A DNA stretch of 10,558 bases from Methanosarcinaceae archaeon (GTDB taxonomy: Archaea; Halobacteriota; Methanosarcinia; Methanosarcinales; Methanosarcinaceae). A program made the translations under genes and the position numbers. How positions within the stretch are numbered: position 1 is the first letter of the stretch; the number at the start of each line of letters is the position of its first letter. Positions 187 through 10,199 of the stretch are shown in pieces. The stretch covers positions 1 to 10,558 of the forward strand of contig JAFGQV010000187.1 in NCBI GenBank assembly GCA_016935475.1, read 5' to 3'. The notes under the pieces were generated by a model that did not search any database, was not told the origin of the DNA, and was given only the letters and a program-made list of their open reading frames with translations.

Positions 187-1236
187 TCAGAAACCCTTGG
201 TCGCCAGTTTAAAAATTATCAGGATCAAAAGAACAGCTCCCAGCAGAGCAGCGCCTGATATAAACAGTGAATAATCCTTCATGAATTCCTCGATTACACC
301 CTCTTCTGAAACTGTTTCGGTCTCTACCTCGGTTGGGGTGTATCCTATCTCTGAATCCGTGCCGTGAAGCGACATGACCCATATATTATAATCACCTGCC
401 TCATTCGAAACATAGACGATCTTTTCACCGTTCGGGTGCCATTCAGGTTGATTTTGCACCAGTTCGTTAAAGGTAAGCTGAAGGGCACCAGTACCATCGG
501 AATTCATGAGCCATATATCATAATTACCACTCCTGTCCGAGACAAAGGCGATCTTTGTGCCATCAGGGCTAAATACCGGATCAATGTTGTGGAATTCATC
601 TTCTGTTAATTGTTCCTGATGAATTCCATCCCTGTCAATTGTCCGGATATCGCCATATGATGAATATACAAGAGCTGTACCGCCAGGACTCCAGGAGGGG
701 GCACCTTCATCCCCGGCTGCATCCGTAAGCCTTACGGGATTCGAGCCGTCAGGGTCCATTATCCAGATGTCATAATTTCCGGACTTTTTAGAAAGATATG
801 CAACGGTTCTGCCGTCGGGGCTTGCCGCAGGGGATCGCTGGTCTGCATTCTTTGTCAGTTGCACCCTGTTCCTGCCATCCGGATCCATCATATGGATGCT
901 AACAAACTGGGTATTCGAAGAATCTGATGCAAAATAGATATTAGTACCGTCACTGCTAAAGCAGGGCTCACCATCCCAGATCACACTGTCATATATCTCC
1001 TTCTGGTTCGAGCCGTCCGAATTCATTGTCCAGATCGCCTGATCCGAGGTATACACAATTTTGGTGCCGTCCGGACTCCATGCTGGAGTGTTCTGGTTTA
1101 TGCCTGTAGTAAGCTGTATTGTTCCTTCAACTGAAATTGCAGCCATTGAAATGGGTAATATCAGTAAAAGGGTTACAGACACAAGGATGCATGTCTGAAA
1201 AACTCTTCCCACCATCGTAATTGCTTTATATCTCAT
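187..1236 (-). CDS. Secreted/surface PD40 (TolB-like) beta-propeller repeat protein with N-terminal signal peptide and C-terminal TM anchor.
   Basis: The N-terminus has a hydrophobic signal-like segment (VFQTCILVSVTLLLILPISMAAIS). There are at least seven repeats of the PD40 signature (SPDG(T/S)KI(A/V)(F/Y)xSxxxGNYDIW(I/L)MxxDGSxxxQLT). The C-terminus has a Thr/Glu-rich linker (TPTEVETETVSEEG), then a hydrophobic helix and KLATKGF. No canonical PGF motif is seen. Confidence 0.8.
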   Translation of the reverse strand: MRYKAITMVGRVFQTCILVSVTLLLILPISMAAISVEGTIQLTTGINQNTPAWSPDGTKIVYTSDQAIWTMNSDGSNQKEIYDSVIWDGEPCFSSDGTNIYFASDSSNTQFVSIHMMDPDGRNRVQLTKNADQRSPAASPDGRTVAYLSKKSGNYDIWIMDPDGSNPVRLTDAAGDEGAPSWSPGGTALVYSSYGDIRTIDRDGIHQEQLTEDEFHNIDPVFSPDGTKIAFVSDRSGNYDIWLMNSDGTGALQLTFNELVQNQPEWHPNGEKIVYVSNEAGDYNIWVMSLHGTDSEIGYTPTEVETETVSEEGVIEEFMKDYSLFISGAALLGAVLLILIIFKLATKGF

Positions 1237-1278: not shown

Positions 1279-2976
1279 TCATTCGAATTTAGTCCCGCAC
1301 ACCGAACAGAACTTCTCACCTTCACCTTTCTCTTTCCCACACTGTGGACAGGTTTTTGGTTCATCTTTTTCGACTTTTGATTTATACACAAAACTGTCTT
1401 TTACCTGTGTACCGATGCTATCACCATAATTGTAAATGTTCTGCACCATGGCAGAATCTATGAGACCTTTTACCAGTGTTCGCTTTTCGACCTCTTCAAG
1501 AATGCCGTGATAGAATCCGATCAGTGCTTCCTCGGTCTCTGCCCATGCCTTGATTATGAGTCTTGACTTATTCGTGCCGCCAACGACCTCGATCTGTGCA
1601 GCGTATTTAAGGTCCTTTACGCCAATTCCATAGAACCTTGCCACACCGTTATACATCTGGGGACTGGAAGATACCTCAGGTTCGAACATGAACATGTTCA
1701 TGTCCTCTATCACCCTTGATGCCATACCAAACAACGTTTCAGCCGGAATTGATATCTCCCGGGTTGTTTCCTCGGTCTTGACAAGATGAGTGATTATGTT
1801 TCTCCATTCGGTTATTGTGATCTCCTTGAGCTTCAGAAGCGGACAGATCACGCTGAGCGATTTTGTTTCAAGGTCGATCTCCTGGCGTTTCTTGGTGCTG
1901 TAATCATAGTAATTAACCCTGCCGGAAACATTGCAGTCTCCGCATTCGCCGGTAGGTCTGATCTCAAAGGTGACGGTTTTACTCTCACAGGGTTCGAGCA
2001 TAGAAATGGTTTTTTCGCTGTCGCTCAAAAGGAATACATCAGGAACAAAAAGGTGAACTTTGACGTCGCTGATAGGTTCAGATGTGGGATTTTCAACCTT
2101 GACCTTATAGTTGATCGTTGCACCTTTATATCCGAAAGCCGAGGAGGTTACCAATTTATCAGATGTATCGATTGCTTGCAAATCCGGTTCTGGTTCCGGA
2201 GCAAACGTTGGTTCTGGTGTTCTTGGTGGCTCTGGTGTTTTTGCGGGTTCTGGCGTTTTCGCTTGTTTTTTTCTGGCAGCATTCCTTTTTCTTGCTTTTC
2301 GAATACCTCTTATCATAAACAAAAAAAAGAACAACGATAACAACAAAAACAAAAGACCCAAAGCCTCTTCATCGGAAGAATCCTGTGCTGTGATCCCATT
2401 ATTCCAGTCTGTTTCAATAACCCTTGTATTGTCAACTGCAATTCCCTCTTTTTCGAGTGTTTGTGAAAACTCTGCTACATCATTGCTTGTAACATCAACG
2501 TACCCGAACGCATCATAATAATCCCATTTAGATAGTTCGATTTCATGCAGTCCGGTAGTTGTCTGGATCTTTATTGGGGTGGTGCCTTGATAAATACCAT
2601 CAAGATATACATCTGCACCATCAGGATAGGAAGTGACTGAAATGTACCCTGTGCTCAGTTTCTGCGCCAGGATTGCTTCAACATACGTAAATTCACCGGA
2701 TTCCACAGATATTTGCTCTAAATAATCATCGTAACCTGAACTTCTGATTTTGACCTTATGCGTTCCAACCGGAACGCCATCAAACCAGACCCAATCAGAT
2801 CCGGTCTGCCCATAGTACGTACCGTCAATATAGATATCCGAATATACCTGGTCAGACCAGACCGCAACAGAACCGGTTTGAGTTACAGTCGGAGCACATG
2901 CCACATTGGCATTCAATGCTATGACCAAAAATAAGATAATTGCTATCTTGATGGAATGTTCAATTCGTTTTGTCAT
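1279..2976 (-). CDS. Type-I membrane protein with extracellular PEGA domains, a TM helix, a KTPEP-repeat linker and a cytoplasmic ~290-aa module ending in a C-terminal zinc ribbon.
   Basis: Signal peptide MTKRIEHSIKIAIILFLVIALNANVA. Two PEGA-like repeats (VTSYPDGADVYLDGIYQGTTPIKIQTTTGLHEIELSKWDY; SDIYIDGTYYGQTGSDWVWFDGVPVGTHKVKIRSSGYDDY). Hydrophobic TM LGLLFLLLSLFFFLFMI, followed by a basic stop-transfer RKARKRNAARKKQAK. PEP-rich repeats KTPEPAKTPEPPRTPEPTFAPEPEP. The cytoplasmic domain is paralogous to the C-terminal part of the 6790..8289 protein. The terminal zinc ribbon is CPQCGKEKGEGEKFCSVCG. An AT-rich promoter-like element (aaaaatataataatattaatt, minus strand) lies in 2977..3035. Confidence 0.8.
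   Translation of the reverse strand: MTKRIEHSIKIAIILFLVIALNANVACAPTVTQTGSVAVWSDQVYSDIYIDGTYYGQTGSDWVWFDGVPVGTHKVKIRSSGYDDYLEQISVESGEFTYVEAILAQKLSTGYISVTSYPDGADVYLDGIYQGTTPIKIQTTTGLHEIELSKWDYYDAFGYVDVTSNDVAEFSQTLEKEGIAVDNTRVIETDWNNGITAQDSSDEEALGLLFLLLSLFFFLFMIRGIRKARKRNAARKKQAKTPEPAKTPEPPRTPEPTFAPEPEPDLQAIDTSDKLVTSSAFGYKGATINYKVKVENPTSEPISDVKVHLFVPDVFLLSDSEKTISMLEPCESKTVTFEIRPTGECGDCNVSGRVNYYDYSTKKRQEIDLETKSLSVICPLLKLKEITITEWRNIITHLVKTEETTREISIPAETLFGMASRVIEDMNMFMFEPEVSSSPQMYNGVARFYGIGVKDLKYAAQIEVVGGTNKSRLIIKAWAETEEALIGFYHGILEEVEKRTLVKGLIDSAMVQNIYNYGDSIGTQVKDSFVYKSKVEKDEPKTCPQCGKEKGEGEKFCSVCGTKFE
2185..2265 (-). repeat. In-frame ~15-nt tandem repeats encoding (K/R)TPEP x3 plus PEP-rich linker, immediately cytoplasmic to the TM helix.
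   Basis: On the plus strand the repeats are ggttctggtgttctt / ggtggctctggtgtt / tttgcgggttctggcgtt. The translated peptide is KTPEPAKTPEPPRTPEPTFAPEPEP. Confidence 0.7.
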
Positions 2977-3035: not shown

Positions 3036-3254
3036 TCAGGCGTAAATCAATCTGCCCTTTGGTGTTGGAATGCTCCGTCCCAGTTCCCTGGCGGTTTCGA
3101 TCCATTCCTCGATCACGATAAGGGCGTTTCGAACTGCTTCTTTGTATGTCCTGCCGTCTGCCATACAACCCGGGAGTTCCGGTACTTCCACAATATAGAC
3201 ACTATCGTCTTCACTCCAGTAAACGACCAGTTCATATTTTATATCTTCTGCCAT
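3036..3254 (-). CDS. HicB-family (UPF0150/RNase-H-like fold) antitoxin-like protein.
   Basis: The 72-aa product YELVVYWSEDDSVYIVEVPELPGCMADGRTYKEAVRNALIVIEEWIE matches the HicB N-domain signature (hhhhhxxEdGgYxaxvPdLPGCxsxGxTxEEAlxnxxEAIxl). An SD GGAGAA lies 8 nt upstream of the ATG. No HicA-like ORF is adjacent. Confidence 0.65.
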   Translation of the reverse strand: MAEDIKYELVVYWSEDDSVYIVEVPELPGCMADGRTYKEAVRNALIVIEEWIETARELGRSIPTPKGRLIYA

Positions 3255-3266
3255 GCTCAGTTCTCC

Positions 3267-3452
3267 TTAAGAGTAAAACTCCACGCCACACTTTGAGCAG
3301 AACCGCTCTCCCTCAACTCTCTCCTTCCCGCACTGCGGACAATTTTCACACCGCTTCCGACAATCGAGCACACAAACCACCACTACAACTTCGCCCCACA
3401 CTGCCCGCAGAACTTGGCATCTACTGGAATTGTTGCCCCGCACTCGGGACAT
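3267..3452 (-). CDS. Small Cys-rich double zinc-ribbon protein. 61 aa from the ATG, or ~37 aa if it starts at the GTG at 3380.
   Basis: Seven Cys are present: CVLDCRKRCENCPQCGKERVEGERFCSKCG. The C-terminal ribbon is identical at 14 of 22 residues to the ribbon at the end of the 1279..2976 protein. The ATG-initiated form overlaps the 3' end of the upstream SPFH gene by 70 nt. GTG codons lie immediately after that gene's stop. The stop at 3267 is 12 nt from the HicB start, with an SD in between. Whether it is translated as a separate protein is uncertain. Confidence 0.4.
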   Translation of the reverse strand: MSRVRGNNSSRCQVLRAVWGEVVVVVCVLDCRKRCENCPQCGKERVEGERFCSKCGVEFYS

Positions 3453-4666
3453 TTTTTCACAGCTGGACCCTTAACACCCTGCGCCGCGCCCATCATCCCG
3501 GCATCCAGTTCCTGCCGCCTGTATGAATCCGCACGCTCCCGGTCTTCAACATCCATCATGAACTGGACCTTATCTTCCTTTGCCCGGGCTTCAGCTTCCC
3601 GTATCTTTGCGAGGGCTTCGAGTTGTTCGGGTGACATACCGCCAAGTTCCCGACCCTGTACTATGGTACTGGCAACATCCGAACCACCTTTCTCGGTGAT
3701 CGTATTCAGGTACTCCATGTCACGGGAATGTTTTCGGTCGGTCATGTCTTCCTCAACTTCCAGATCAGCTCGTTTTGCCCCCGTCTTCGCTTCTTTCCAT
3801 GTTTTGAACGTCTCGATCGCCTGCCGTGCCTCCGCTGCATCCGCTTCATTTTCTATACCGGAGATATCAGCCTTAATGCGTGCCTCTTTGATCTTCTCTG
3901 CACGCTCATGCTCCCTCATAGCTGTTTCGGGTGCAAGCCTGCTCCTGACATCTGCAACACCCACGCGTCCCGTGCGTTCAAGGTCGCCTTCGGTGGTAAG
4001 AGTTTCCATATCCTTGAGCTCTTCTTCGGTCTGGAACTTGTTCGATGCCTCAAGGACCTCGCCGTAGCTTCCAAGGTCCCACTGTGCAGTGTAGCGCAGC
4101 AGCTCAAGTCCCCACATGGAAAGCGATGTCTTAAGTTGCATCTCAAGCTCGTTCTCCATCTTTAGCTGGAGATTGCGGTTGCCATAAATGTTCTCAATGT
4201 TCACCTGCTTGATCTCAGGCTCCAGTACCCGCGTGATCGTCTCGCTTTCAAGACGGCCATAGATATCCTGGATAGAAAGTGCACGCTCTCCTTTTTTATC
4301 GGGCGTCGTATATGCAAAAAGCATCTGGAAAAATTTTTTCGGGTCCTGCATCTTAAACCGCAGGATACCACTGCAACCAACCTTCTGGTTATCTGCTGTC
4401 CACATCTCAGCATGCTCCCACTCAAGGTCCTTTGGAGACGTGTCCATAAGTGCAACATCAACATCCTTCCCGATGTTGCCCGGTTTGAGTATGCCGCCCA
4501 CACGCAGTTTACCACTGTCGATTATCTCTTCGACCGTACCGTTCTTGATTATGGCAGCTTTTTCGTTAGGCGAAAGTATTATCGACTTGCTGAACAATCC
4601 ACCTACATCTTTTTTTGGGATCACCCTTGCAATATCATCTGATTGTTTTTTCCATTTGAATACCAT
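3383..4666 (-). CDS. SPFH/band-7 (flotillin-like, YdjI-type) protein with a long charged coiled-coil region and a C-terminal zinc ribbon.
   Basis: The N-terminus FKWKKQSDDIARVIPKKDVGGLFSKSIILSPNEKAAIIKNGTVEEIIDSGKLRVGG matches the N-terminal signature of the YdjI-like SPFH family (W...D.IvwkfP...i..gSqLiV.e.Q.AvF..dG...d.f.pG...L). A ~200-aa E/R/K/A-rich helical region follows. The end is KKCPECGATIPVDAKFCGQCGAKL. An SD AGGTG lies 8 nt upstream of the ATG at 4666. Confidence 0.7.
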   Translation of the reverse strand: MVFKWKKQSDDIARVIPKKDVGGLFSKSIILSPNEKAAIIKNGTVEEIIDSGKLRVGGILKPGNIGKDVDVALMDTSPKDLEWEHAEMWTADNQKVGCSGILRFKMQDPKKFFQMLFAYTTPDKKGERALSIQDIYGRLESETITRVLEPEIKQVNIENIYGNRNLQLKMENELEMQLKTSLSMWGLELLRYTAQWDLGSYGEVLEASNKFQTEEELKDMETLTTEGDLERTGRVGVADVRSRLAPETAMREHERAEKIKEARIKADISGIENEADAAEARQAIETFKTWKEAKTGAKRADLEVEEDMTDRKHSRDMEYLNTITEKGGSDVASTIVQGRELGGMSPEQLEALAKIREAEARAKEDKVQFMMDVEDRERADSYRRQELDAGMMGAAQGVKGPAVKKCPECGATIPVDAKFCGQCGAKL

Positions 4667-4793: not shown

Positions 4794-4949
4794 ATGGGAA
4801 TATCATATCCGGTAAGTGCAAGAGTATCAGAGAACATAAAACAATACCTAGATGAATTGGTTGAGAGGGGGATCGCAATTAATACTTCTGAAGCATTAAA
4901 AATATGTATAAGGTATGCTAAACAAAAGAAAATGGAGGATGAAATATAA
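4794..4949 (+). CDS. Ribbon-helix-helix (CopG/Arc-like) DNA-binding protein, 51 aa, likely autoregulator of the downstream operon.
   Basis: MGISYPVSARVSENIKQYLDELVERGIAINTSEALKICIRYAKQKK shows a beta-strand with alternating hydrophobics followed by two helices. An SD GGTGGAG (4783..4789) lies 5 nt before the ATG at 4794. The track's upstream ATG at 4734 lacks an RBS and would start inside the promoter. The stop overlaps the next start (TAATG). Confidence 0.6.
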   Translation: MGISYPVSARVSENIKQYLDELVERGIAINTSEALKICIRYAKQKKMEDEI

Positions 4950-5512
4950 TGGGACTTGGAAATCCATTCAAAAAAGTATCACCTGAAGAACTGAAAACAA
5001 AACTCGCGATATCCGAACAGAGATTATCTGCACGGGAATCTGAACTCTCCAAAAAACGCCAGAAATCACGTGAACAAGCAAAGGAAGCACTGGCAAACGG
5101 TAACGACCGTGAGTTTAGGGTTGCATCCCGCAGGTATTCCATGGTTGAGGGACAGGTCAATACCATCAGCAGCATGGTGGAGATGGCACAATCCATGACA
5201 GATGTGATTGAGATGCAGACAGGGCTTAAGGAAGTTGTTGATATCGGGAACGATCTTGGCAAATGGCAAAAACAGCTTGGATTTGACACGAGTAAACTGG
5301 AGAGTGCAGTTACCAACATCCGCACCTCCATGGAGAAAGTGAACACTGCAACCAATATGATGACATCTTCAATGGATGCAGCCATGGCTGGCGGAACTGA
5401 ACTTAGCGATATGCAGGATTCACTCAGGGGCGAGTTGCTGGCAGAACTTAGCGGTGAGACGGCATCCAAGGATAAGCTATCCAAGAAGATCGAAGAAGAG
5501 ATGGAAGAGTGA
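4949..5512 (+). CDS. ESCRT-III/Snf7/PspA-superfamily protein (CdvB/CHMP-like), 187 aa.
   Basis: MGLGNPFKKVSPEEL... parallels the CHMP/Snf7 N-terminus (MGLFGK..PKE). The basic helical N-half (KKRQKSREQAKEALANGNDREFRVASRRYSMVEGQ) and the acidic, Met-rich helical C-half follow the charge asymmetry of the Snf7 domain. The protein ends in an acidic amphipathic helix DKLSKKIEEEMEE, which is MIM-like. A strong SD GGAGGA lies 9 nt upstream. The gene is followed by a MIT-AAA ATPase gene. Confidence 0.55.
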   Translation: MGLGNPFKKVSPEELKTKLAISEQRLSARESELSKKRQKSREQAKEALANGNDREFRVASRRYSMVEGQVNTISSMVEMAQSMTDVIEMQTGLKEVVDIGNDLGKWQKQLGFDTSKLESAVTNIRTSMEKVNTATNMMTSSMDAAMAGGTELSDMQDSLRGELLAELSGETASKDKLSKKIEEEMEE

Positions 5513-5600: not shown

Positions 5601-6767
5601 GTGCCCCATTTGACATCTACAAGTTCACTCGCGGCCCAGGCCCGCGGATATGCAAAAGCTGCCAGGACCTTAGAGGATGAGAACAAATACGAGCGAGCGA
5701 GAGAACTCTACCTCAAGGCAGCTAAATTATACAACGAAGCATCAAAGATCGCAACCGACAAGACCGATAAGAACACCCAGCGCGACCTTGCAGAGCATCT
5801 TCTTGCAAAAGCGCAGTCCCTCAAAAGCTCAGGTGCCCACGATTCAGTTTCCGGGATTAGCAGTGGAAGCGGTGGTAGCGATTCTGACGAGTCTTCGTTA
5901 TCAAAGGATGACCTTATCCTGAAACAGATCCCTAACATCGGATTTGATGACATCGGCGGTCTTGAATCCGTAAAAGAGGACATCAGGAAGGCGATCATAT
6001 ACCCCTTCACCCACAAGGACCTGTACAAGATGTACGGACAGAAAGCAGGCGAAGGCATTCTCCTCTACGGACCTCCAGGCTGCGGTAAGACCATGATGGC
6101 AAAGGCTGCTGCTAAGGAATGCGGCGCGGACTTTATCAGTGTCAAGACGAGTAGTATTGTGAGCAAATGGGTGGGAGCGTCCGAGAAGAATGTCAAACAG
6201 GTTTTTGAGACTGCGCGCCAGTGTGAGAAATCCATCATCTTTTTTGATGAGATCGATTCAATAGCCGGAAGGCGCAGCGAGAGCGAGGATTACGCCAAGC
6301 GCGTGGTTAACGAACTCCTCGCCCAGATGGACGGGGTCGATACGGCTGATGACAATCTCCTTATCCTTGCAGCCACCAACGAGCCGTGGGCGATCGACCC
6401 GGCTCTGCGGCGCCCGGGGCGTTTCAGTAAACTGGTGTTCATACCTGAACCGGACCTCGATGCCCGTGCAGCAATATTCAAGCTCAACCTGAAAGGGCGA
6501 CCGATTTCGGATGATGTTGATGTCAACCGGCTTGCCGGGATCACAGAATCGTATTCAGGTGCGGACATTTCTGCTATCTGTAAAGAAGCAGCGGATATTC
6601 CGCTGGGCGAGGCGCTTCGTGGCGGTGAGGCACGGAAGATCGCAATGAAGGATTTCGTAACAGTACTGCAAGGTCGGAAGCCTTCTATCTTAAGCTGGTA
6701 TGTGGAAGCCCGGGCGGAAGTTAGGAAGAGCGGGGAAGAAGCAGTGTTTGAGGGGATAATGGGATGA
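5601..6767 (+). CDS. Vps4/CdvC-like AAA+ ATPase (meiotic clade) with N-terminal MIT-like three-helix domain.
   Basis: The start is a GTG at 5601, the only in-frame start before the domain. The N-terminus AAQARGYAKAARTLEDENKYERARELYLKAAKLYNEASKIA...LAEHLLAKAQSLK resembles the Vps4 MIT domain (A..LA..A...D..G.YeeAl.lY..a...f.......  ....eYl.RAE.LK). An S/G/D-rich linker follows. The AAA core has Walker A GPPGCGKT, Walker B IIFFDEID, an SRH LAATNEPWAIDPALRRPGRF and a sensor-2 region. The protein ends shortly after the AAA lid, so no Vps4 beta-domain or C-terminal helix is evident. Confidence 0.8.
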   Translation: MPHLTSTSSLAAQARGYAKAARTLEDENKYERARELYLKAAKLYNEASKIATDKTDKNTQRDLAEHLLAKAQSLKSSGAHDSVSGISSGSGGSDSDESSLSKDDLILKQIPNIGFDDIGGLESVKEDIRKAIIYPFTHKDLYKMYGQKAGEGILLYGPPGCGKTMMAKAAAKECGADFISVKTSSIVSKWVGASEKNVKQVFETARQCEKSIIFFDEIDSIAGRRSESEDYAKRVVNELLAQMDGVDTADDNLLILAATNEPWAIDPALRRPGRFSKLVFIPEPDLDARAAIFKLNLKGRPISDDVDVNRLAGITESYSGADISAICKEAADIPLGEALRGGEARKIAMKDFVTVLQGRKPSILSWYVEARAEVRKSGEEAVFEGIMG

Positions 6768-6789: not shown

Positions 6790-8289
6790 ATGAATGTTAT
6801 ACTTACAAATCAAATGAAAAAGATACTGCATGGTGAAAAAGCAGTAGCTATTGCATCAGCATCTATGAACAAATCAGTATTTGATACTGATGTAGGTGTC
6901 AGTGATTCAGAACTCTTAAATAACGTGGTTTCAACAGTCAACGAAGTATTTGAGAATGATAAAAAAATTAGTGGTTCAGTGCTTTTAACAGATAGTCGTA
7001 TCATACTATATTCAAAACGGACTTTAGGTGGTTACTATTTCAAAGATTTTCGAATAAATTCGATTAACGGTGTCACATTCAAAAATGGATTTTTAAAATC
7101 TAGCATGATATTTCATACAAATAACGGTGATACTAAAATAAATATGCCAGATAAAAACGCCGCAAAAAAATTAAATATCGCTCTGGAAACACGCATATCT
7201 AAATGGAAAAAAGAAGCAATTGCCATTGAATCTTATGACGCCGTAGAAATAACATCACATAAACCCACAAAACATTCAGACAACATTAATTCAGACCTTT
7301 TAATATCCCGCGAAACCGAATTTTACCAGGGTTTTATTCGATTAAAGATGTCTGTCACCAACACTTCATCCTTTGTAGTTAACGATGTCACTCTCGATTT
7401 TGATTATGATAACAACTTATTAAGAATAGACAGACACGAACCTGATTATCAAATTGAAAATGGAAAAGTCATATTTGGAAATATATCTGTCGATTCTTCA
7501 AAAACCGTTGCAATTTACTTTGATCCAATGATGTGCTCAAAAGGTACAGACATCAACTGCCAGATAAATTACAAAGATGCAAAAGGGCAGCTCCAAACTA
7601 CTCAGATGGAATCAAAGAAAATTAGTGTGGTTTGCCCGATAATGGAAACAGAATCTGATATAAACATCGGCAGACTTAAAGAGTTCATCAAAAAACTGCC
7701 GTATAGTGACAGCAAGGTGTATCAATTACAGAACAATTATGATATCGATATTCTAAAAAATATCTCACGGGAAGTTGTACAAAAACACAATGTTAAGCAC
7801 ATAAGGACTCTTATTACGAAAGATGAAAAAATGTGTGAGGTATGGTACTATGGCAAGACCAAAGTGCACAGCCATGATATTGTCATTAAAATTACAATTT
7901 TAAGCGAAACACAGAACATTGAATTGTTTGCTGCAACTCAAACTGTAGAATCTCTTGCCGGACTGCTGGCAGAAGTAGGACGTGAGTTGAAGAGTGCTAT
8001 TGAAAGTAAGATCACCGGCAATGTTCAGCAAGTCATCAATGTGTCTATCAAGGATTCTATTGTCCAGCGAAGCAACCTTTTGAGTTATTGTGATATTGAC
8101 GGTAATTGCAGTGGGGATGTTGTTATTGAAGACAGTCTTGTGATGCGTTCGAATATTAGTTCGGATGCTGAAGTTAAGGACAGTGTAGTGCAAAAAACTA
8201 ATGTCGGTAATATCTTTTGTACGGCTTGTGGAGAGGCTGTGCCGGCTGGTGCAAAGTTCTGCATGGAATGTGGGGAGAGGTTAAAGTGA
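6790..8289 (+). CDS. Multidomain protein with four parts: a PH/GRAM-like N-domain, a two-Cys beta-sandwich-like domain, KDSxVxxSN repeats and a C-terminal zinc ribbon. Paralog of the cytoplasmic part of the 1279..2976 protein.
   Basis: Residues ~60-125 (SGSVLLTDSRIILYSKRTLGGYYFKDFRINSINGVTFKNGFLKSSMIFHTNNGDTKINMP) fit a bacterial-PH/GRAM-like strand pattern. Residues ~178-283 align to residues ~283-380 of the PEGA protein (SKTV..F...P..C..G.D.N....INY.D.......+.....K.+SV+CP). The repeats are IKDSIVQRSNL / IEDSLVMRSNI / VKDSVVQKTNV. The end is CTACGEAVPAGAKFCMECGERLK. The first ~1.1 kb is markedly AT-rich relative to its neighbours. Confidence 0.55.
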   Translation: MNVILTNQMKKILHGEKAVAIASASMNKSVFDTDVGVSDSELLNNVVSTVNEVFENDKKISGSVLLTDSRIILYSKRTLGGYYFKDFRINSINGVTFKNGFLKSSMIFHTNNGDTKINMPDKNAAKKLNIALETRISKWKKEAIAIESYDAVEITSHKPTKHSDNINSDLLISRETEFYQGFIRLKMSVTNTSSFVVNDVTLDFDYDNNLLRIDRHEPDYQIENGKVIFGNISVDSSKTVAIYFDPMMCSKGTDINCQINYKDAKGQLQTTQMESKKISVVCPIMETESDINIGRLKEFIKKLPYSDSKVYQLQNNYDIDILKNISREVVQKHNVKHIRTLITKDEKMCEVWYYGKTKVHSHDIVIKITILSETQNIELFAATQTVESLAGLLAEVGRELKSAIESKITGNVQQVINVSIKDSIVQRSNLLSYCDIDGNCSGDVVIEDSLVMRSNISSDAEVKDSVVQKTNVGNIFCTACGEAVPAGAKFCMECGERLK

Positions 8290-8320: not shown

Positions 8321-8722
8321 ATGAGCAACCTAGAAGAAGGCATGCGGTGGTTCAAACAAAGTGAACGCGACCTCGGCGCAGCTGCGAGTCTGCGGGATAG
8401 TGAATACTACGAATCTGCATGTTTCCATGCGCAGCAGGCGTCGGAAAAAGCACTCAAAGGACTGCTCTATGCGAAAGGGTACAGGTCTGTAATAACCCAC
8501 TCCACGCGAGAATTATACAAACATGTAAAAAAACTGATCCCGGACTTTAAGGATTATGACCATGCATCGATGAATCTTGACAAACACTACATTCCACCGC
8601 GCTACCCGGATGCATTCCCCTCCGGCTCACCCTATGAATATTACACAAAAGAGGATGCAGACAAATGCATAAACTATGCAGGATTGATATTAGCCGAAGT
8701 GAGAAACTTCATGAGCGAATAA
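8321..8722 (+). CDS. HEPN-domain protein (toxin partner of the HEPN/MNT module).
   Basis: FHAQQASEKALKGLLYAKG is a typical HEPN helix. An R-x4-H motif (RELYKH) is present. An SD GGGAGG (8311..8316) lies 5 nt upstream of the ATG. The 3' end overlaps the downstream MNT gene by 58 nt. Confidence 0.75.
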   Translation: MSNLEEGMRWFKQSERDLGAAASLRDSEYYESACFHAQQASEKALKGLLYAKGYRSVITHSTRELYKHVKKLIPDFKDYDHASMNLDKHYIPPRYPDAFPSGSPYEYYTKEDADKCINYAGLILAEVRNFMSE

Positions 8723-9024
8723 AACAGTTCGTGTCAAGACTCGCATCCCGTCCGGGCATCAAGCAGGTCTACCTGTTCGGCTCGGTCGCGCGGGACGATT
8801 TCAATGAAGGCAGCGACATAGACATTGCTATCATAGGGGATTTCAAAGAGCGATTTTTAGATAGGGGTGACGCGTTTTTTGAAATGACCGATCTTCCGAT
8901 AGAACCGCTCTGCTACACCGAATCTGAATTTGAAACAATGAAGAAGAGCAATAATCCCTTTGTAAAAGAGATATTGAAAGGGAAGATACTGTTCGATCAT
9001 CAGAAAAGGCGAGGTTTCACATGA
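8665..9024 (+). CDS. Minimal nucleotidyltransferase (MNT, Pol-beta superfamily), antitoxin-type partner of HEPN.
   Basis: LFGSVARDDFNEGSDIDIAII matches the G[SG]x9-13Dh[DE]h NTase signature. The true start may be a non-ATG codon downstream of 8665. The stop overlaps the next gene's start (ATGA at 9021..9024). Confidence 0.8.
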   Translation: MHKLCRIDISRSEKLHERIKQFVSRLASRPGIKQVYLFGSVARDDFNEGSDIDIAIIGDFKERFLDRGDAFFEMTDLPIEPLCYTESEFETMKKSNNPFVKEILKGKILFDHQKRRGFT

Positions 9025-10199
9025 CCGACCACGAAACAGACCCAAAAACCCTCCAGCAAAATAACCGCAAAAAGGCGATCAACAACCTGCGCGATGTGCA
9101 TGCGGCAATCGAAAGACTGATGAACAAAACCTACCGCCAGCAGGATGTGACCGCAAGTTCCGCACTCAGGCAGATGAGGACAAGGGTAACTGCGCTGCTC
9201 TCGGAGATGGAGAACACAGGTCTTGACACATTCAGCGGACGCGAGGGTACACTGGATGAGTTCTACAACGCTGAGGAGCATTTCACCAAAAGCTCGACCA
9301 GACTGATAAAAGCAGTCGAAGATGCTGAGGTCACCGATGAAAAGGTCGATGTGTTTTCACTGGAAGATCTTGTCGATGCACTGGAGAGGGGTTTCAACAA
9401 CAGGATCATTCTCACACAGGAACACCTGAAAGAATACGAAAAACTACGAACGGAGTCCCGGAAAGAAGAAATTACCGAGGAGCCCTTCAAGGCTGTGCAG
9501 GATACTGTATCTGAAACCGTGGCGGATGCAGAAGTTGAAGAGATATCCGAAGATATTGATTCATCAATGCCACCGGAACTCTATAATTACATCAACATCC
9601 TTGAGCAGAAATACTCGACCTACAGACCCGAGATATCAAACAGCGGCGATTATATTGCAAACAAATCATGGAAAGTGGATACAGCAGAGGACGGTATTCG
9701 AGCTGTTGTCAAGGACGGGATGTTCAAAACACTACTTGTTTTTGAGACATACTGGATGCCACTGGATAATGTGCAGGATACTGTAAAGTTCGTGCAGTCG
9801 CAGGCGAATGCGGTTGGCAAGAACCAGTACAAAAGCCTGTGTCTCATTAACAGTGTATGGAACAATGAGGTCCAAAACTGGGCAGGAAGTTTCGTTCATC
9901 AGCGTATGGTTCTATTCCTGTATGAACTTGAAAGCGGGACACTCATTTTTAATGGAACATCAAAGACTGCAGACAACTTTAAGTTCTGGCACTCTACTGA
10001 CAATCAGAAAATGACACTTGCCGATGAAATGGCTGGTTTTATTGAGGATACGGAATACTTCACGGTCACTGACGTTATGTCACGTTTTGGCTTGAACTCC
10101 CGCGGGGCAGAGATGTACCTGGATGAACTGGTAAAGAAAGGAAAACTTGTTGATGTGGGACTCGAAAAACCGAAATACACAAAATCAAAACTCAGCTGA
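9021..10199 (+). CDS. Hypothetical 392-aa protein translationally coupled to HEPN-MNT. It has three parts: a helical N-region, an acidic linker and a C-terminal winged-helix-like domain.
   Basis: An SD GGCGAGG precedes the ATG. The acidic stretch is EEITEEPFKAVQDTVSETVADAEVEEISEDID. The C-terminus YFTVTDVMSRFGLNSRGAEMYLDELVKKGKLV resembles a wHTH. No catalytic motif was recognised with confidence. Confidence 0.6.
   Translation: MTDHETDPKTLQQNNRKKAINNLRDVHAAIERLMNKTYRQQDVTASSALRQMRTRVTALLSEMENTGLDTFSGREGTLDEFYNAEEHFTKSSTRLIKAVEDAEVTDEKVDVFSLEDLVDALERGFNNRIILTQEHLKEYEKLRTESRKEEITEEPFKAVQDTVSETVADAEVEEISEDIDSSMPPELYNYINILEQKYSTYRPEISNSGDYIANKSWKVDTAEDGIRAVVKDGMFKTLLVFETYWMPLDNVQDTVKFVQSQANAVGKNQYKSLCLINSVWNNEVQNWAGSFVHQRMVLFLYELESGTLIFNGTSKTADNFKFWHSTDNQKMTLADEMAGFIEDTEYFTVTDVMSRFGLNSRGAEMYLDELVKKGKLVDVGLEKPKYTKSKLS

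What the first reader, a model, noticed from the sequence alone, without database searches (positions are those of the whole stretch)
1279..2130. The cytoplasmic module of the PEGA membrane protein is paralogous to the C-terminal ~320 aa of the PH-domain protein at 7321..8289
The two proteins align over three segments. The first is a two-Cys beta-sandwich-like segment (ESKTVTFEIRPTGECGDCNVSGRVNYYDYSTKKRQEIDLETKSLSVICP against SSKTVAIYFDPMMCSKGTDINCQINYKDAKGQLQTTQMESKKISVVCP). The second is an alpha/beta segment (..FYGIGVKD.. against ..WYYGKTKV..; IIKAWAETEEALIGF against ELFAATQTVESLAGL). The third is a KDSxV repeat before the ribbon (QVKDSFVYKSKV against EVKDSVVQKTNV). One paralog is tethered by a TM helix with extracellular PEGA domains. 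The other is tethered by a PH/GRAM-like lipid-binding domain. Both are therefore membrane-targeted versions of the same unknown module. This module is not a family I recognise.
Basis: seen in the sequence. Interest (0 to 1): 0.75.

Follow-up and report, generated by a model that had tools for sequence, protein, structure and literature searches.

The report
Paired adaptin-ear-like modules, archaeal ESCRT locus
Two neighbouring archaeal genes do share a roughly 240-residue cytoplasmic module, but it is the adaptin-appendage-like domain already published in 2024 as part of a Methanosarcinales ESCRT-type gene cluster, so the finding is real but not new.

Summary
The cytoplasmic part of the PEGA membrane protein (1279-2976, minus strand) and the C-terminal part of the PH-domain protein (6790-8289) are homologous. 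BLASTP gives E=9e-10, or 5e-8 without the zinc ribbon. Family profiles give E=4.8e-17.

The similarity is uneven. The beta-sandwich and the KDSxV motif are each significant. The alpha/beta segment is not significant by sequence alone, but it has the same secondary-structure order, in register.

The module is therefore not an unknown family. [quoted passage not shown] 2024 (mBio), which named this the "Meth_adaptin" system. The window holds the rest of that system: an SPFH zinc-ribbon protein, an ESCRT-III-like protein, Vps4 and a winged-helix protein.

The likely role is an adaptor linking membrane or surface proteins to ESCRT-III/Vps4, but this is inferred and untested. Small additions here are the PH-domain assignment, the PEGA ectodomain, and fusion of the module to many other domains.

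The parts
1279..2976 (-). Gene A, 565 aa: signal anchor, two PEGA domains, TM helix, Pro/Glu-rich linker, appendage-like module, KDSxV motif, zinc ribbon
   Evidence: ORF; Pfam PEGA E=2.3e-25; hydrophobic segments at residues 8 and 203 onward; family-A module HMM E=7.6e-137
2446..2880 (-). Extracytoplasmic PEGA domains of A (about residues 33-177)
   Evidence: Pfam PEGA, two stretches, best at residues 110-177
2311..2361 (-). Transmembrane helix of A (residues 206-222), followed by the basic stretch RGIRKARKRNAARKK
   Evidence: Sequence and hydropathy. The positive-inside topology is inferred.
1837..2151 (-). Ig-like beta-sandwich subdomain of A (residues 276-380), with conserved Cys in PTGECGDC and VICP
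   Evidence: AlphaFold model, eight strands, block-mean pLDDT about 87-96; hhalign against the family-B sandwich E=1.3e-10; conserved columns
1462..1833 (-). Alpha/beta platform (TBP-like) subdomain of A (residues 382-505)
1357..1461 (-). Low-confidence tail of A carrying one KDSxV motif (QVKDSFVYKSKV)
   Evidence: pLDDT below 50; tail hhalign E=2.6e-8
1282..1356 (-). C-terminal zinc ribbon of A (CPQCG...FCSVCG)
   Evidence: Pfam Zn_Ribbon_1 E=1.9e-4, 21.5 bits, below the 25-bit cutoff; CxxC...CxxC visible in the sequence
6790..8289 (+). Gene B, 499 aa: bacterial PH domain, appendage-like module, three KDSxV-type repeats, zinc ribbon
   Evidence: ORF; Pfam; family-B module HMM E=3e-155; identical over 491 aa to an NCBI MAG protein named 'PH domain-containing protein [Methanosarcinaceae archaeon]'
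6937..7182 (+). bPH_3 (bacterial PH) domain of B (residues 50-131)
   Evidence: Pfam PF14470 E=1.8e-9, 38.4 bits against a cutoff of 23; close homologues also carry a precomputed GRAM hit, PF02893
7297..7638 (+). Ig-like beta-sandwich subdomain of B (residues 170-283), with invariant Cys
7642..8010 (+). Alpha/beta platform subdomain of B (residues 285-407)
8011..8208 (+). Tail of B with three KDSxV-type repeats flanking CDxDGxC
   Evidence: Sequence; conserved across family B, including fusions that lack the ribbon
8209..8286 (+). C-terminal zinc ribbon of B
   Evidence: Pfam Zn_Ribbon_1 E=1.1e-6, 28.7 bits against a cutoff of 25
3383..4666 (-). SPFH/Band-7, coiled-coil and zinc-ribbon protein (arCOG15283-type)
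   Evidence: Pfam Band_7 E=7.4e-8 and Zn_Ribbon_1 E=3.8e-8; 62-79% identical orthologues next to family-A genes in related loci
4794..4949 (+). [quoted passage not shown]
   Evidence: 70-84% identical in 5 related loci and 72-75% in L001; the Methanolobus orthologue carries a precomputed PF27540 hit
4949..5512 (+). ESCRT-III (Snf7)-like protein
   Evidence: Pfam Snf7 E=0.0027, below threshold; 82-86% identical orthologues named 'Snf7 family protein' by UniRef
5601..6767 (+). Vps4/CdvC-like AAA ATPase with a weak N-terminal MIT match
   Evidence: Pfam AAA E=3.5e-45, MIT E=0.0068; NCBIfam CdvC E=8.3e-73 over 4-359 of 370 profile positions, below the equivalog cutoff
9021..10199 (+). Protein with a weak EAP30/Vps36-family match at its C-terminus; its counterpart in the published locus is described as coiled-coil plus winged-helix
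   Evidence: [quoted passage not shown]

Best explanation
Genes A (1279-2976, minus strand) and B (6790-8289) are the two paralogous adaptin-appendage-like subunits of a Meth_adaptin-type ESCRT system in a Methanosarcinaceae archaeon.

Shown here: each protein carries an Ig-like beta-sandwich, then a TBP-like alpha/beta platform, then a short conserved KDSxVQRSN-type motif, then a C-terminal zinc ribbon. Both genes lie in a conserved cluster with an SPFH zinc-ribbon protein, an ESCRT-III-like protein, a Vps4-like ATPase and a winged-helix protein.

Inferred, not shown: the module sits on the cytoplasmic face of the membrane and acts as a protein-interaction hub, as adaptin and COPI ears do. 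It would dock the protein onto the ESCRT-III/Vps4/winged-helix/SPFH assembly. The variable part of each protein would decide what is coupled to that machine. In A this is a pair of extracellular PEGA domains joined through a single membrane pass. In B it is a PH domain that could bind membrane or protein. The two would then act like ESCRT-0/I or adaptor subunits, for sorting membrane proteins, forming vesicles or remodelling membrane. The zinc ribbon, which the SPFH protein also has, and the KDSxV motif are candidates for a shared docking element.
For: Homology:
- BLASTP E=9e-10, and 5e-8 without the ribbon, z=14.7.
- hhalign E=4.8e-17.
- Same secondary-structure order, in register.

Fold:
- Foldseek against the PDB with the A model gives ranks 1-19 all from COPI coat, AP-2 alpha/beta2 ear or BBSome BBS9 entries. 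They span 237-260 alignment columns with E from 2.4e-11 to 1.4e-5. The first generic Ig hit is at rank 20 with 111 columns.

Identity with the published family:
- P0065 = WP_094228178.1, a B orthologue (47% identity over 76% of B).
- P0187 = WP_129582672.1 and P0163 = WP_048205090.1, A orthologues (52% and 58% identity to the A module).

Context:
- The arrangement A-SPFH | small gene-Snf7-Vps4-(B)-wH recurs in Methanolobus sp. WCC4 and in metagenome-assembled genomes.
- The hub and ESCRT-0-analogue idea is the one proposed in PMC10936438.
Against: - No experiment exists for any component.
- No adaptin Pfam family reaches its threshold. Alpha_adaptinC2 matches 21 of 82 family-A members with best E=0.0039. 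Generic prokaryotic Ig families (NPCBM_assoc, CARDB) match at least as well. No platform family is among the 25 families matching the most members.
- Foldseek TM-scores are low (0.25-0.33) and rmsd is 12-15 A, because the two subdomains are oriented differently from solved ears.
- The alpha/beta segment is not significantly similar between A and B by sequence alone.
- In two related loci (L005, L006) no B-type gene lies beside Vps4.
- One B-type module fusion lies in a Methanosarcina sp. MTP4 locus with no ESCRT genes within 8 kb. The module may therefore work independently of ESCRT.
Confidence: 0.8

Rival explanations
1. The shared module is a generic prokaryotic Ig-like domain (CARDB, NEW3 or DUF11 type) followed by an unrelated small alpha/beta domain. 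Its resemblance to adaptin ears would then be convergent or too generic to imply common descent or a common mode of action.
For: - Sequence-level Pfam hits to NPCBM_assoc (47 of 82 members) and CARDB (35 of 82) outnumber those to Alpha_adaptinC2 (21 of 82), and none pass threshold.
- UniRef names some family-A proteins 'DUF11 domain-containing'.
Against: - The platform-only AP-4 beta4 ear matches on its own.
- HHpred probabilities of 98% to AP-2 beta and COPI beta appendages are reported for the Methanosalsum orthologues (PMC10936438 Table S3).
Confidence: 0.12
2. The module is a general cytoplasmic signalling or oligomerisation domain of Methanosarcinales surface and repeat proteins. Its presence in the ESCRT-like locus would be one use among many, so A and B would not be dedicated ESCRT adaptors.
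For: - The B-type module is fused to FGE-sulfatase in 43 of the 120 best hits. It is also fused to TPR, HEAT, WD40/PQQ, GOLD and FKBP domains.
- The A-type module is fused to Kelch/LamG, WD40, beta-helix/CARDB and HEAT domains.
- One FGE fusion (P0046, Methanosarcina sp. MTP4) has no ESCRT neighbours.
- No ESCRT-III orthologue named as Methanosarcina appeared in the search.
Against: - A family-A gene follows the SPFH gene in every related locus that extends past it (L001, L003, L005, L006, L007, L008), though in L007 a B-type gene lies between them. A B-type gene follows Vps4 in the window, L001, L003 and L004.
- Contigs of identical length are listed for dispersed fusions and for ESCRT-III orthologues (1,128,000 bp for P0075, P0100 and P0248; 87,895 bp for P0077 and P0245), so they are probably the same contigs.
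- A large set of proteins carrying one common handle is what a cargo or adaptor system would look like, so this rival overlaps the main explanation.
- Absence from Methanosarcina was not tested on whole genomes.
Confidence: 0.2
3. The apparent paralogy is an artefact of the shared zinc ribbon and of compositionally biased linkers.
For: Three proteins in the window end in very similar zinc ribbons (A, B and SPFH), and BLAST links them through that ribbon.
Against: With the ribbon removed the match remains (E=5.3e-8, z=14.7). Ribbon-free profiles give E=4.8e-17. The sandwich alone gives 1.3e-10.
Confidence: 0.01

Closest known systems
[quoted passage not shown] 2024, mBio 15:e00335-24; PMC10936438)
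   Same: - Orthologues of both A and B are listed in this arCOG.
- The two-subdomain module and zinc ribbon are the same.
- The locus partners are the same: SPFH-coiled-coil-zinc ribbon (arCOG15283), ESCRT-III, Vps4, and a coiled-coil/winged-helix protein.
- One membrane-spanning and one soluble version are described there too.
   Different: - In the reference Methanosalsum zhilinae locus the membrane-spanning paralogue has the order module, TM, GOLD. Here it is PEGA x2, TM, module, zinc ribbon.
[quoted passage not shown] Here it is a bPH_3 PH domain. Whether the two are the same domain was not tested.
- No ProX gene is seen in this window. HicB-like and HEPN/nucleotidyltransferase genes are interspersed.
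Eukaryotic adaptin and COPI appendage (ear) domains: AP-2 alpha and beta2, gamma-COP and beta-COP, AP-4 beta4, BBSome BBS9
   Same: An Ig-like sandwich followed by a TBP-like platform. These are the best and the only two-subdomain structural matches. In eukaryotes they serve as protein-interaction hubs at membranes (as summarised in PMC10936438).
   Different: - Sequence families do not match at threshold.
- The subdomains are oriented differently (rmsd 12-15 A).
- The module is not attached to a HEAT trunk in A or B.
- It carries conserved cysteines, a KDSxV motif and a zinc ribbon; whether solved ears have these was not checked here.
- It is associated with ESCRT-III and Vps4, not with clathrin or COPI coats.
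ESCRT-II Vps36 (GLUE/PH domain plus zinc fingers) and the Asgard Znr_PH_CC_SB protein
   Same: A PH-type domain combined with zinc-ribbon or zinc-finger elements in an ESCRT accessory protein. The domains are proposed to give membrane association (PMC11188069).
   Different: B has no detected winged-helix pair or steadiness box. Its PH domain is of the bacterial bPH_3 type. Its core is the appendage-like module.

Membership tests
arCOG15284 / Meth_adaptin appendage-like proteins | Sequence orthology to listed members | tested here: met
   P0065 = WP_094228178.1 (47% identity over 76% of B). P0187 = WP_129582672.1 (52% identity over 96% of the A module). P0163 = WP_048205090.1 (58% identity). 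All are listed in Table S1.
arCOG15284 / Meth_adaptin appendage-like proteins | Encoded next to Vps4, ESCRT-III, the SPFH zinc-ribbon protein and the coiled-coil/winged-helix protein | tested here: met
   Window gene order. The same order occurs in L001 and L003-L006.
arCOG15284 / Meth_adaptin appendage-like proteins | Ig-like plus TBP-like two-subdomain fold | tested here: met
Eukaryotic adaptin/COPI appendage domain | Sandwich subdomain recognised by Pfam Alpha_adaptinC2 or GAE-type models | tested here: not met
   The window's A module has no Alpha_adaptinC2 hit at E<=1 and only PTHB1_GAE at E=0.11. Across 82 members the best Alpha_adaptinC2 E-value is 0.0039, below threshold.
Eukaryotic adaptin/COPI appendage domain | Platform subdomain recognised by sequence models (B2-adapt-app_C, Alpha_adaptin_C, COP-gamma_platf) | tested here: not met
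   No such family among the window A module's hits at E<=1, nor among the 25 families matching the most members.
Eukaryotic adaptin/COPI appendage domain | Three-dimensional similarity over both subdomains | tested here: met
Eukaryotic adaptin/COPI appendage domain | Attached through a hinge to a HEAT-repeat trunk of a coat large subunit | tested here: not met
   A has PEGA domains and a TM helix. B has a PH domain. Some relatives elsewhere do carry short HEAT-repeat regions (P0039, P0025, P0366).
Eukaryotic adaptin/COPI appendage domain | Binds short linear motifs (FxDxF, DPF/W and similar) of accessory proteins | not testable with these tools
   Needs binding assays or complex structures.
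PEGA domain (PF08308) | Pfam match above the gathering score | tested here: met
   88.7 bits against a cutoff of 20.8, two stretches.
Bacterial PH domain (bPH_3, PF14470) | Pfam match above the gathering score | tested here: met
   38.4 bits against a cutoff of 23, residues 50-131. No solved relative found by sequence.
ESCRT-III / Vps4 system | Snf7-family protein and MIT-domain AAA ATPase | tested here: inconclusive
   Snf7 scores 17.8 bits against a cutoff of 27.3. MIT scores 16.9 bits against 30. CdvC gives E=8.3e-73 but is below the equivalog cutoff. Orthologues are named Snf7 family by UniRef and are assigned to arCOG00454 and arCOG01307 in PMC10936438.

The most novel reading that the evidence does not exclude
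The appendage-like module may be a portable cytoplasmic handle. In Methanosarcinaceae and Methanoperedens-type archaea it is attached to many different proteins: FGE-sulfatase, GOLD, PEGA, CARDB/beta-helix and Kelch domains on membrane-spanning proteins, and TPR, HEAT, WD40 and PH domains on soluble ones. Together these would form a repertoire of cargo receptors or adaptors for a euryarchaeal ESCRT-III/Vps4/SPFH sorting or vesicle machine. The HEAT-plus-appendage members would then echo the build of adaptin large subunits outside Asgard archaea and eukaryotes. The main text of the 2024 paper does not describe this expansion.
Probability: 0.25. Interest if true: 0.6.

Novelty: already known. 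Interest (0 to 1): 0.25.

Why it matters
The Meth_adaptin locus has been proposed as a model for the ancestral archaeal ESCRT system. It is also cited as evidence that adaptin-ear, GOLD and SPFH building blocks of eukaryotic trafficking predate eukaryotes (PMC10936438). This window is one more example of it, with a PEGA ectodomain and a clearly assignable PH domain. It does not change that picture. Its practical value is as a target for experiments, since no component has been tested, and as a pointer to the wide range of proteins that carry the same module.

Tried and rejected
- A PDB sequence search with the family-B profile (A2) returned only FGE-sulfatase structures. More than half of the aligned proteins carry that extra domain, so the search says nothing about the module.
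- The N-terminal 165 residues of B have no solved relative by phmmer.
- The afdb50 fold library was unavailable.
- The genome-contig scan with the SPFH protein found only 6 close loci.
- NCBIfam has no model for A, B, the SPFH protein or the Snf7-like protein.
- The bacterial promoter and terminator scan is not meaningful for an archaeon and showed nothing.
- The profile search of 1.84 billion representatives lists only the best 150 hits, all close family members. It could not show whether the profile reaches Asgard or eukaryotic adaptins.
None appears in the structural matches shown.
- An explanation based only on the zinc ribbon or on low complexity was rejected.
Full report
**What is in the window.** The 10,558-base window is a whole contig from a Methanosarcinaceae metagenome-assembled genome. 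The 6790-8289 product is identical over 491 residues to an NCBI protein named [quoted passage not shown], found on a contig of exactly 10,558 bases. The genes, are:

- 187-1236 (minus): PD40 beta-propeller with a C-terminal anchor.
- 1279-2976 (minus): protein A, with two PEGA domains, a TM helix, the module and a zinc ribbon.
- 3036-3254 (minus): HicB-like protein.
- 3383-4666 (minus): SPFH/Band-7 protein with a zinc ribbon.
- 4794-4949 (plus): small conserved gene.
- 4949-5512 (plus): Snf7-like protein (weak Pfam match).
- 5601-6767 (plus): MIT/AAA Vps4/CdvC-like ATPase.
- 6790-8289 (plus): protein B, with a bPH_3 domain, the module and a zinc ribbon.
- 8321-9024 (plus): HEPN and nucleotidyltransferase pair.
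- 9021-10199 (plus): protein with a weak EAP30/Vps36-type match at its C-terminus.

**Checking the observation.** BLASTP aligns A271-565 with B167-499 at E=9e-10. I removed the zinc ribbon because it is a promiscuous element, also present on the SPFH protein. The match remains at E=5.3e-8, and the Smith-Waterman score is 14.7 standard deviations above 500 shuffles.

I collected homologues of each protein, trimmed them to the ribbon-free module and compared the two family profiles. hhalign gives 99% probability and E=4.8e-17 over 262 columns.

The signal is uneven along the module. The beta-sandwich is significant alone (1.3e-10), and so is the short KDSxV tail motif (2.6e-8). The alpha/beta segment alone is not significant (E=0.055; pairwise z=-0.8). 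That segment is supported by structure instead. AlphaFold models of both modules (pLDDT 81.3 and 83.7) show the same order of elements: an eight-strand sandwich, then H-E-H-E-E-E-E-H. When the model secondary structures are mapped through the hhalign alignment, they agree at 91% of positions in the sandwich and 77% in the alpha/beta domain. Registers shifted by 3-12 residues give 29-57%.

Foldseek against the PDB is more discriminating. Ranks 1-19 for the A model all come from COPI coat entries (including the gamma-COP appendage), AP-2 alpha and beta2 appendage entries, or BBSome BBS9. Each spans 237-260 alignment columns, with E from 2.4e-11 to 1.4e-5. The first single-domain Ig match is at rank 20 with 111 columns. 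TM-scores are low (0.25-0.33) because the two subdomains are oriented differently from the solved ears. The fold is therefore sandwich plus platform, the adaptin appendage architecture.

At the sequence level no adaptin Pfam family reaches threshold. Alpha_adaptinC2 matches 21 of 82 family-A members, best E=0.0039. Generic prokaryotic Ig families (NPCBM_assoc, CARDB) match at least as often. No platform family is among the 25 families that match the most members.

**It is already described.** Makarova et al. 2024 (mBio; PMC10936438, preprint PMC11188069) define a "Meth_adaptin" clade of archaeal ESCRT systems. [quoted passage not shown] One has a zinc ribbon and an uncharacterised N-terminal domain. 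The other is fused through a transmembrane linker to a GOLD domain. The neighbourhoods also hold an SPFH-coiled-coil-zinc ribbon protein, ESCRT-III, Vps4 and a coiled-coil/winged-helix protein. The paper's Table S3 reports HHpred probabilities of 98% to AP-2 beta and COPI beta appendages. Its Table S1 groups these proteins in arCOG15284.

I linked the window's proteins to that table by exact accession:

- P0065, a B orthologue, is WP_094228178.1.
- P0187 and P0163, A orthologues, are WP_129582672.1 and WP_048205090.1.
- P0114 is WP_094229259.1.

All four are listed in arCOG15284. Both the paralogy and the fold assignment are therefore in the literature. A later literature search found no experimental follow-up.

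**Context.** The arrangement A-SPFH | small gene-Snf7-Vps4-(B)-winged helix recurs in Methanolobus sp. WCC4 (L001) and in five metagenome-assembled loci. A family-A gene follows the SPFH gene wherever the locus extends that far, although in L007 a B-type gene lies between them. A B-type gene follows Vps4 in the window, L001, L003 and L004, but not in L005 or L006. Named orthologues of the Snf7-like protein come from Methanolobus, Methanomethylovorans, Methanohalophilus, Methanococcoides, Methanosalsum and Methanoperedens. Both module families include Methanoperedens-type sequences. The A/B duplication is therefore probably older than the split between those lineages.

**Likely mechanism.** The following are shown: homology, fold, domain order and conserved neighbourhood. 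The topology of A is inferred. A has an N-terminal hydrophobic anchor, PEGA domains, a TM helix at residues 206-222 followed by RGIRKARKRNAARKK, a Pro/Glu-rich linker and then the module. By the positive-inside rule the PEGA domains face outward and the module faces the cytoplasm.

By analogy with adaptin and COPI ears, and following the 2024 proposal, I take the module to be an interaction hub that couples its carrier to the ESCRT-III/Vps4/winged-helix/SPFH assembly at the membrane. A would contribute a surface-exposed part and B a PH domain. This functional part is inference only. I give about 0.8 to the identity of the genes as Meth_adaptin appendage-like paralogues, and much less (about 0.3-0.4) to the specific adaptor mechanism.

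The main rival is that the module is a general-purpose domain whose link to ESCRT is only one of several uses. Its wide range of fusions supports this, as does one fusion gene that lies away from any ESCRT gene.

**What goes slightly beyond the paper.**

1. The N-terminal domain of B is a bPH_3 PH domain above Pfam threshold. This parallels the PH/GLUE domain of Vps36 and the Asgard Znr_PH_CC_SB protein.
2. The membrane paralogue here has PEGA ectodomains, with the order ectodomain, TM, module.
3. Both module types are fused to many other domains. For the B type these are FGE-sulfatase (43 of the 120 best hits), TPR, HEAT, WD40/PQQ, GOLD and FKBP. For the A type they are Kelch/LamG, WD40, beta-helix/CARDB and HEAT. 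The paper's main text does not mention FGE, and it mentions HEAT and TPR only for eukaryotic adaptins or Asgard proteins.
4. A KDSxVQRSN-type motif and a set of conserved cysteines are shared by both families.
5. At 50% clustering the family has 132 representatives at E<=1e-30 and 277 at E<=1e-10.

**Verdict.** Novelty: already known. Interest is low to moderate, mainly as an untested system and for the module's wide range of fusions.

Noticed in passing
window 3276-3347 (minus strand), inside ORF 3267-3452: An orphan zinc-ribbon coding stretch (ENCPQCGKERVEGERFCSKCGVEF). It is 67% identical to the C-terminal ribbon of protein A (tblastn E=1.3e-10) and lies just downstream of the SPFH gene. 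In L008 a 112-aa family-A fragment occupies the same position. It may be a remnant of a lost or truncated A-type paralogue.
   Followed up: partly
window 3036-3254 (minus strand); L008 5179-5448: A HicB/UPF0150-like gene with no visible HicA partner lies between protein A and the SPFH gene. An 83%-identical copy lies between two family-A paralogues in another MAG. The repeated adjacency may not be accidental.
   Followed up: partly
window 4794-4949 (plus strand): A small gene of about 51 aa, possibly ribbon-helix-helix. [quoted passage not shown] Its stop codon overlaps the Snf7-like start codon. It could be a regulator of the operon.
   Followed up: partly
proteins P0042-P0120; L002 8001-9845: The B-type module is fused to FGE-sulfatase domains in 43 of the 120 best hits, usually in the order module, charged coiled coil, TM, FGE. 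Several copies occur per genome, for example three in Methanosarcina sp. MTP4. One of those (P0046) has no ESCRT genes within 8 kb.
   Followed up: partly
P0039, P0025 (L009 2738-5290), P0366: Some relatives combine a short HEAT-repeat region with the appendage-like module. The HEAT region gives a sub-threshold Adaptin_N match (E about 4-6e-8, 32-33 bits against a cutoff of 37). The order echoes that of adaptin large subunits. P0025 lies two genes from a PH-type B orthologue.
   Followed up: partly
window 1837-2151 (minus strand) and 7297-7638 (plus strand): Conserved cysteines in a cytoplasmic Ig-like sandwich. In family A, C81 is invariant and C84 and C114 are nearly so. In family B, C85, C93 and C118 are invariant. 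They lie at the hairpin before strand 7 and in the closing 'VCP'. A metal site is possible.
   Followed up: no
window 8011-8208 (plus strand) and 1357-1461 (minus strand): A KDS[IV][IV]QRSN[IL]-type motif sits between the platform and the zinc ribbon, three copies in B flanking CDxDGxC and one in A. It is conserved in both families and kept even in FGE fusions that lack the ribbon. It could be a docking peptide or a small beta element.
   Followed up: partly
window 8321-9024 (plus strand); L001 4365-4808: A HEPN and nucleotidyltransferase pair lies between B and the winged-helix gene. Its ORFs overlap, and the second ORF overlaps the start of the winged-helix ORF. A gene with a faint HEPN match also flanks the Methanolobus locus.
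   Followed up: no
L003 4428-5315 and L004 4440-5306: A third, much weaker match to the module HMM (E about 1e-6, about 290 aa) lies between the B-type gene and the winged-helix gene in two related loci. In Methanolobus (L001 11832-13094) the same position holds a 420-aa protein with a faint Transglut_C (Ig-like) hit.
   Followed up: no
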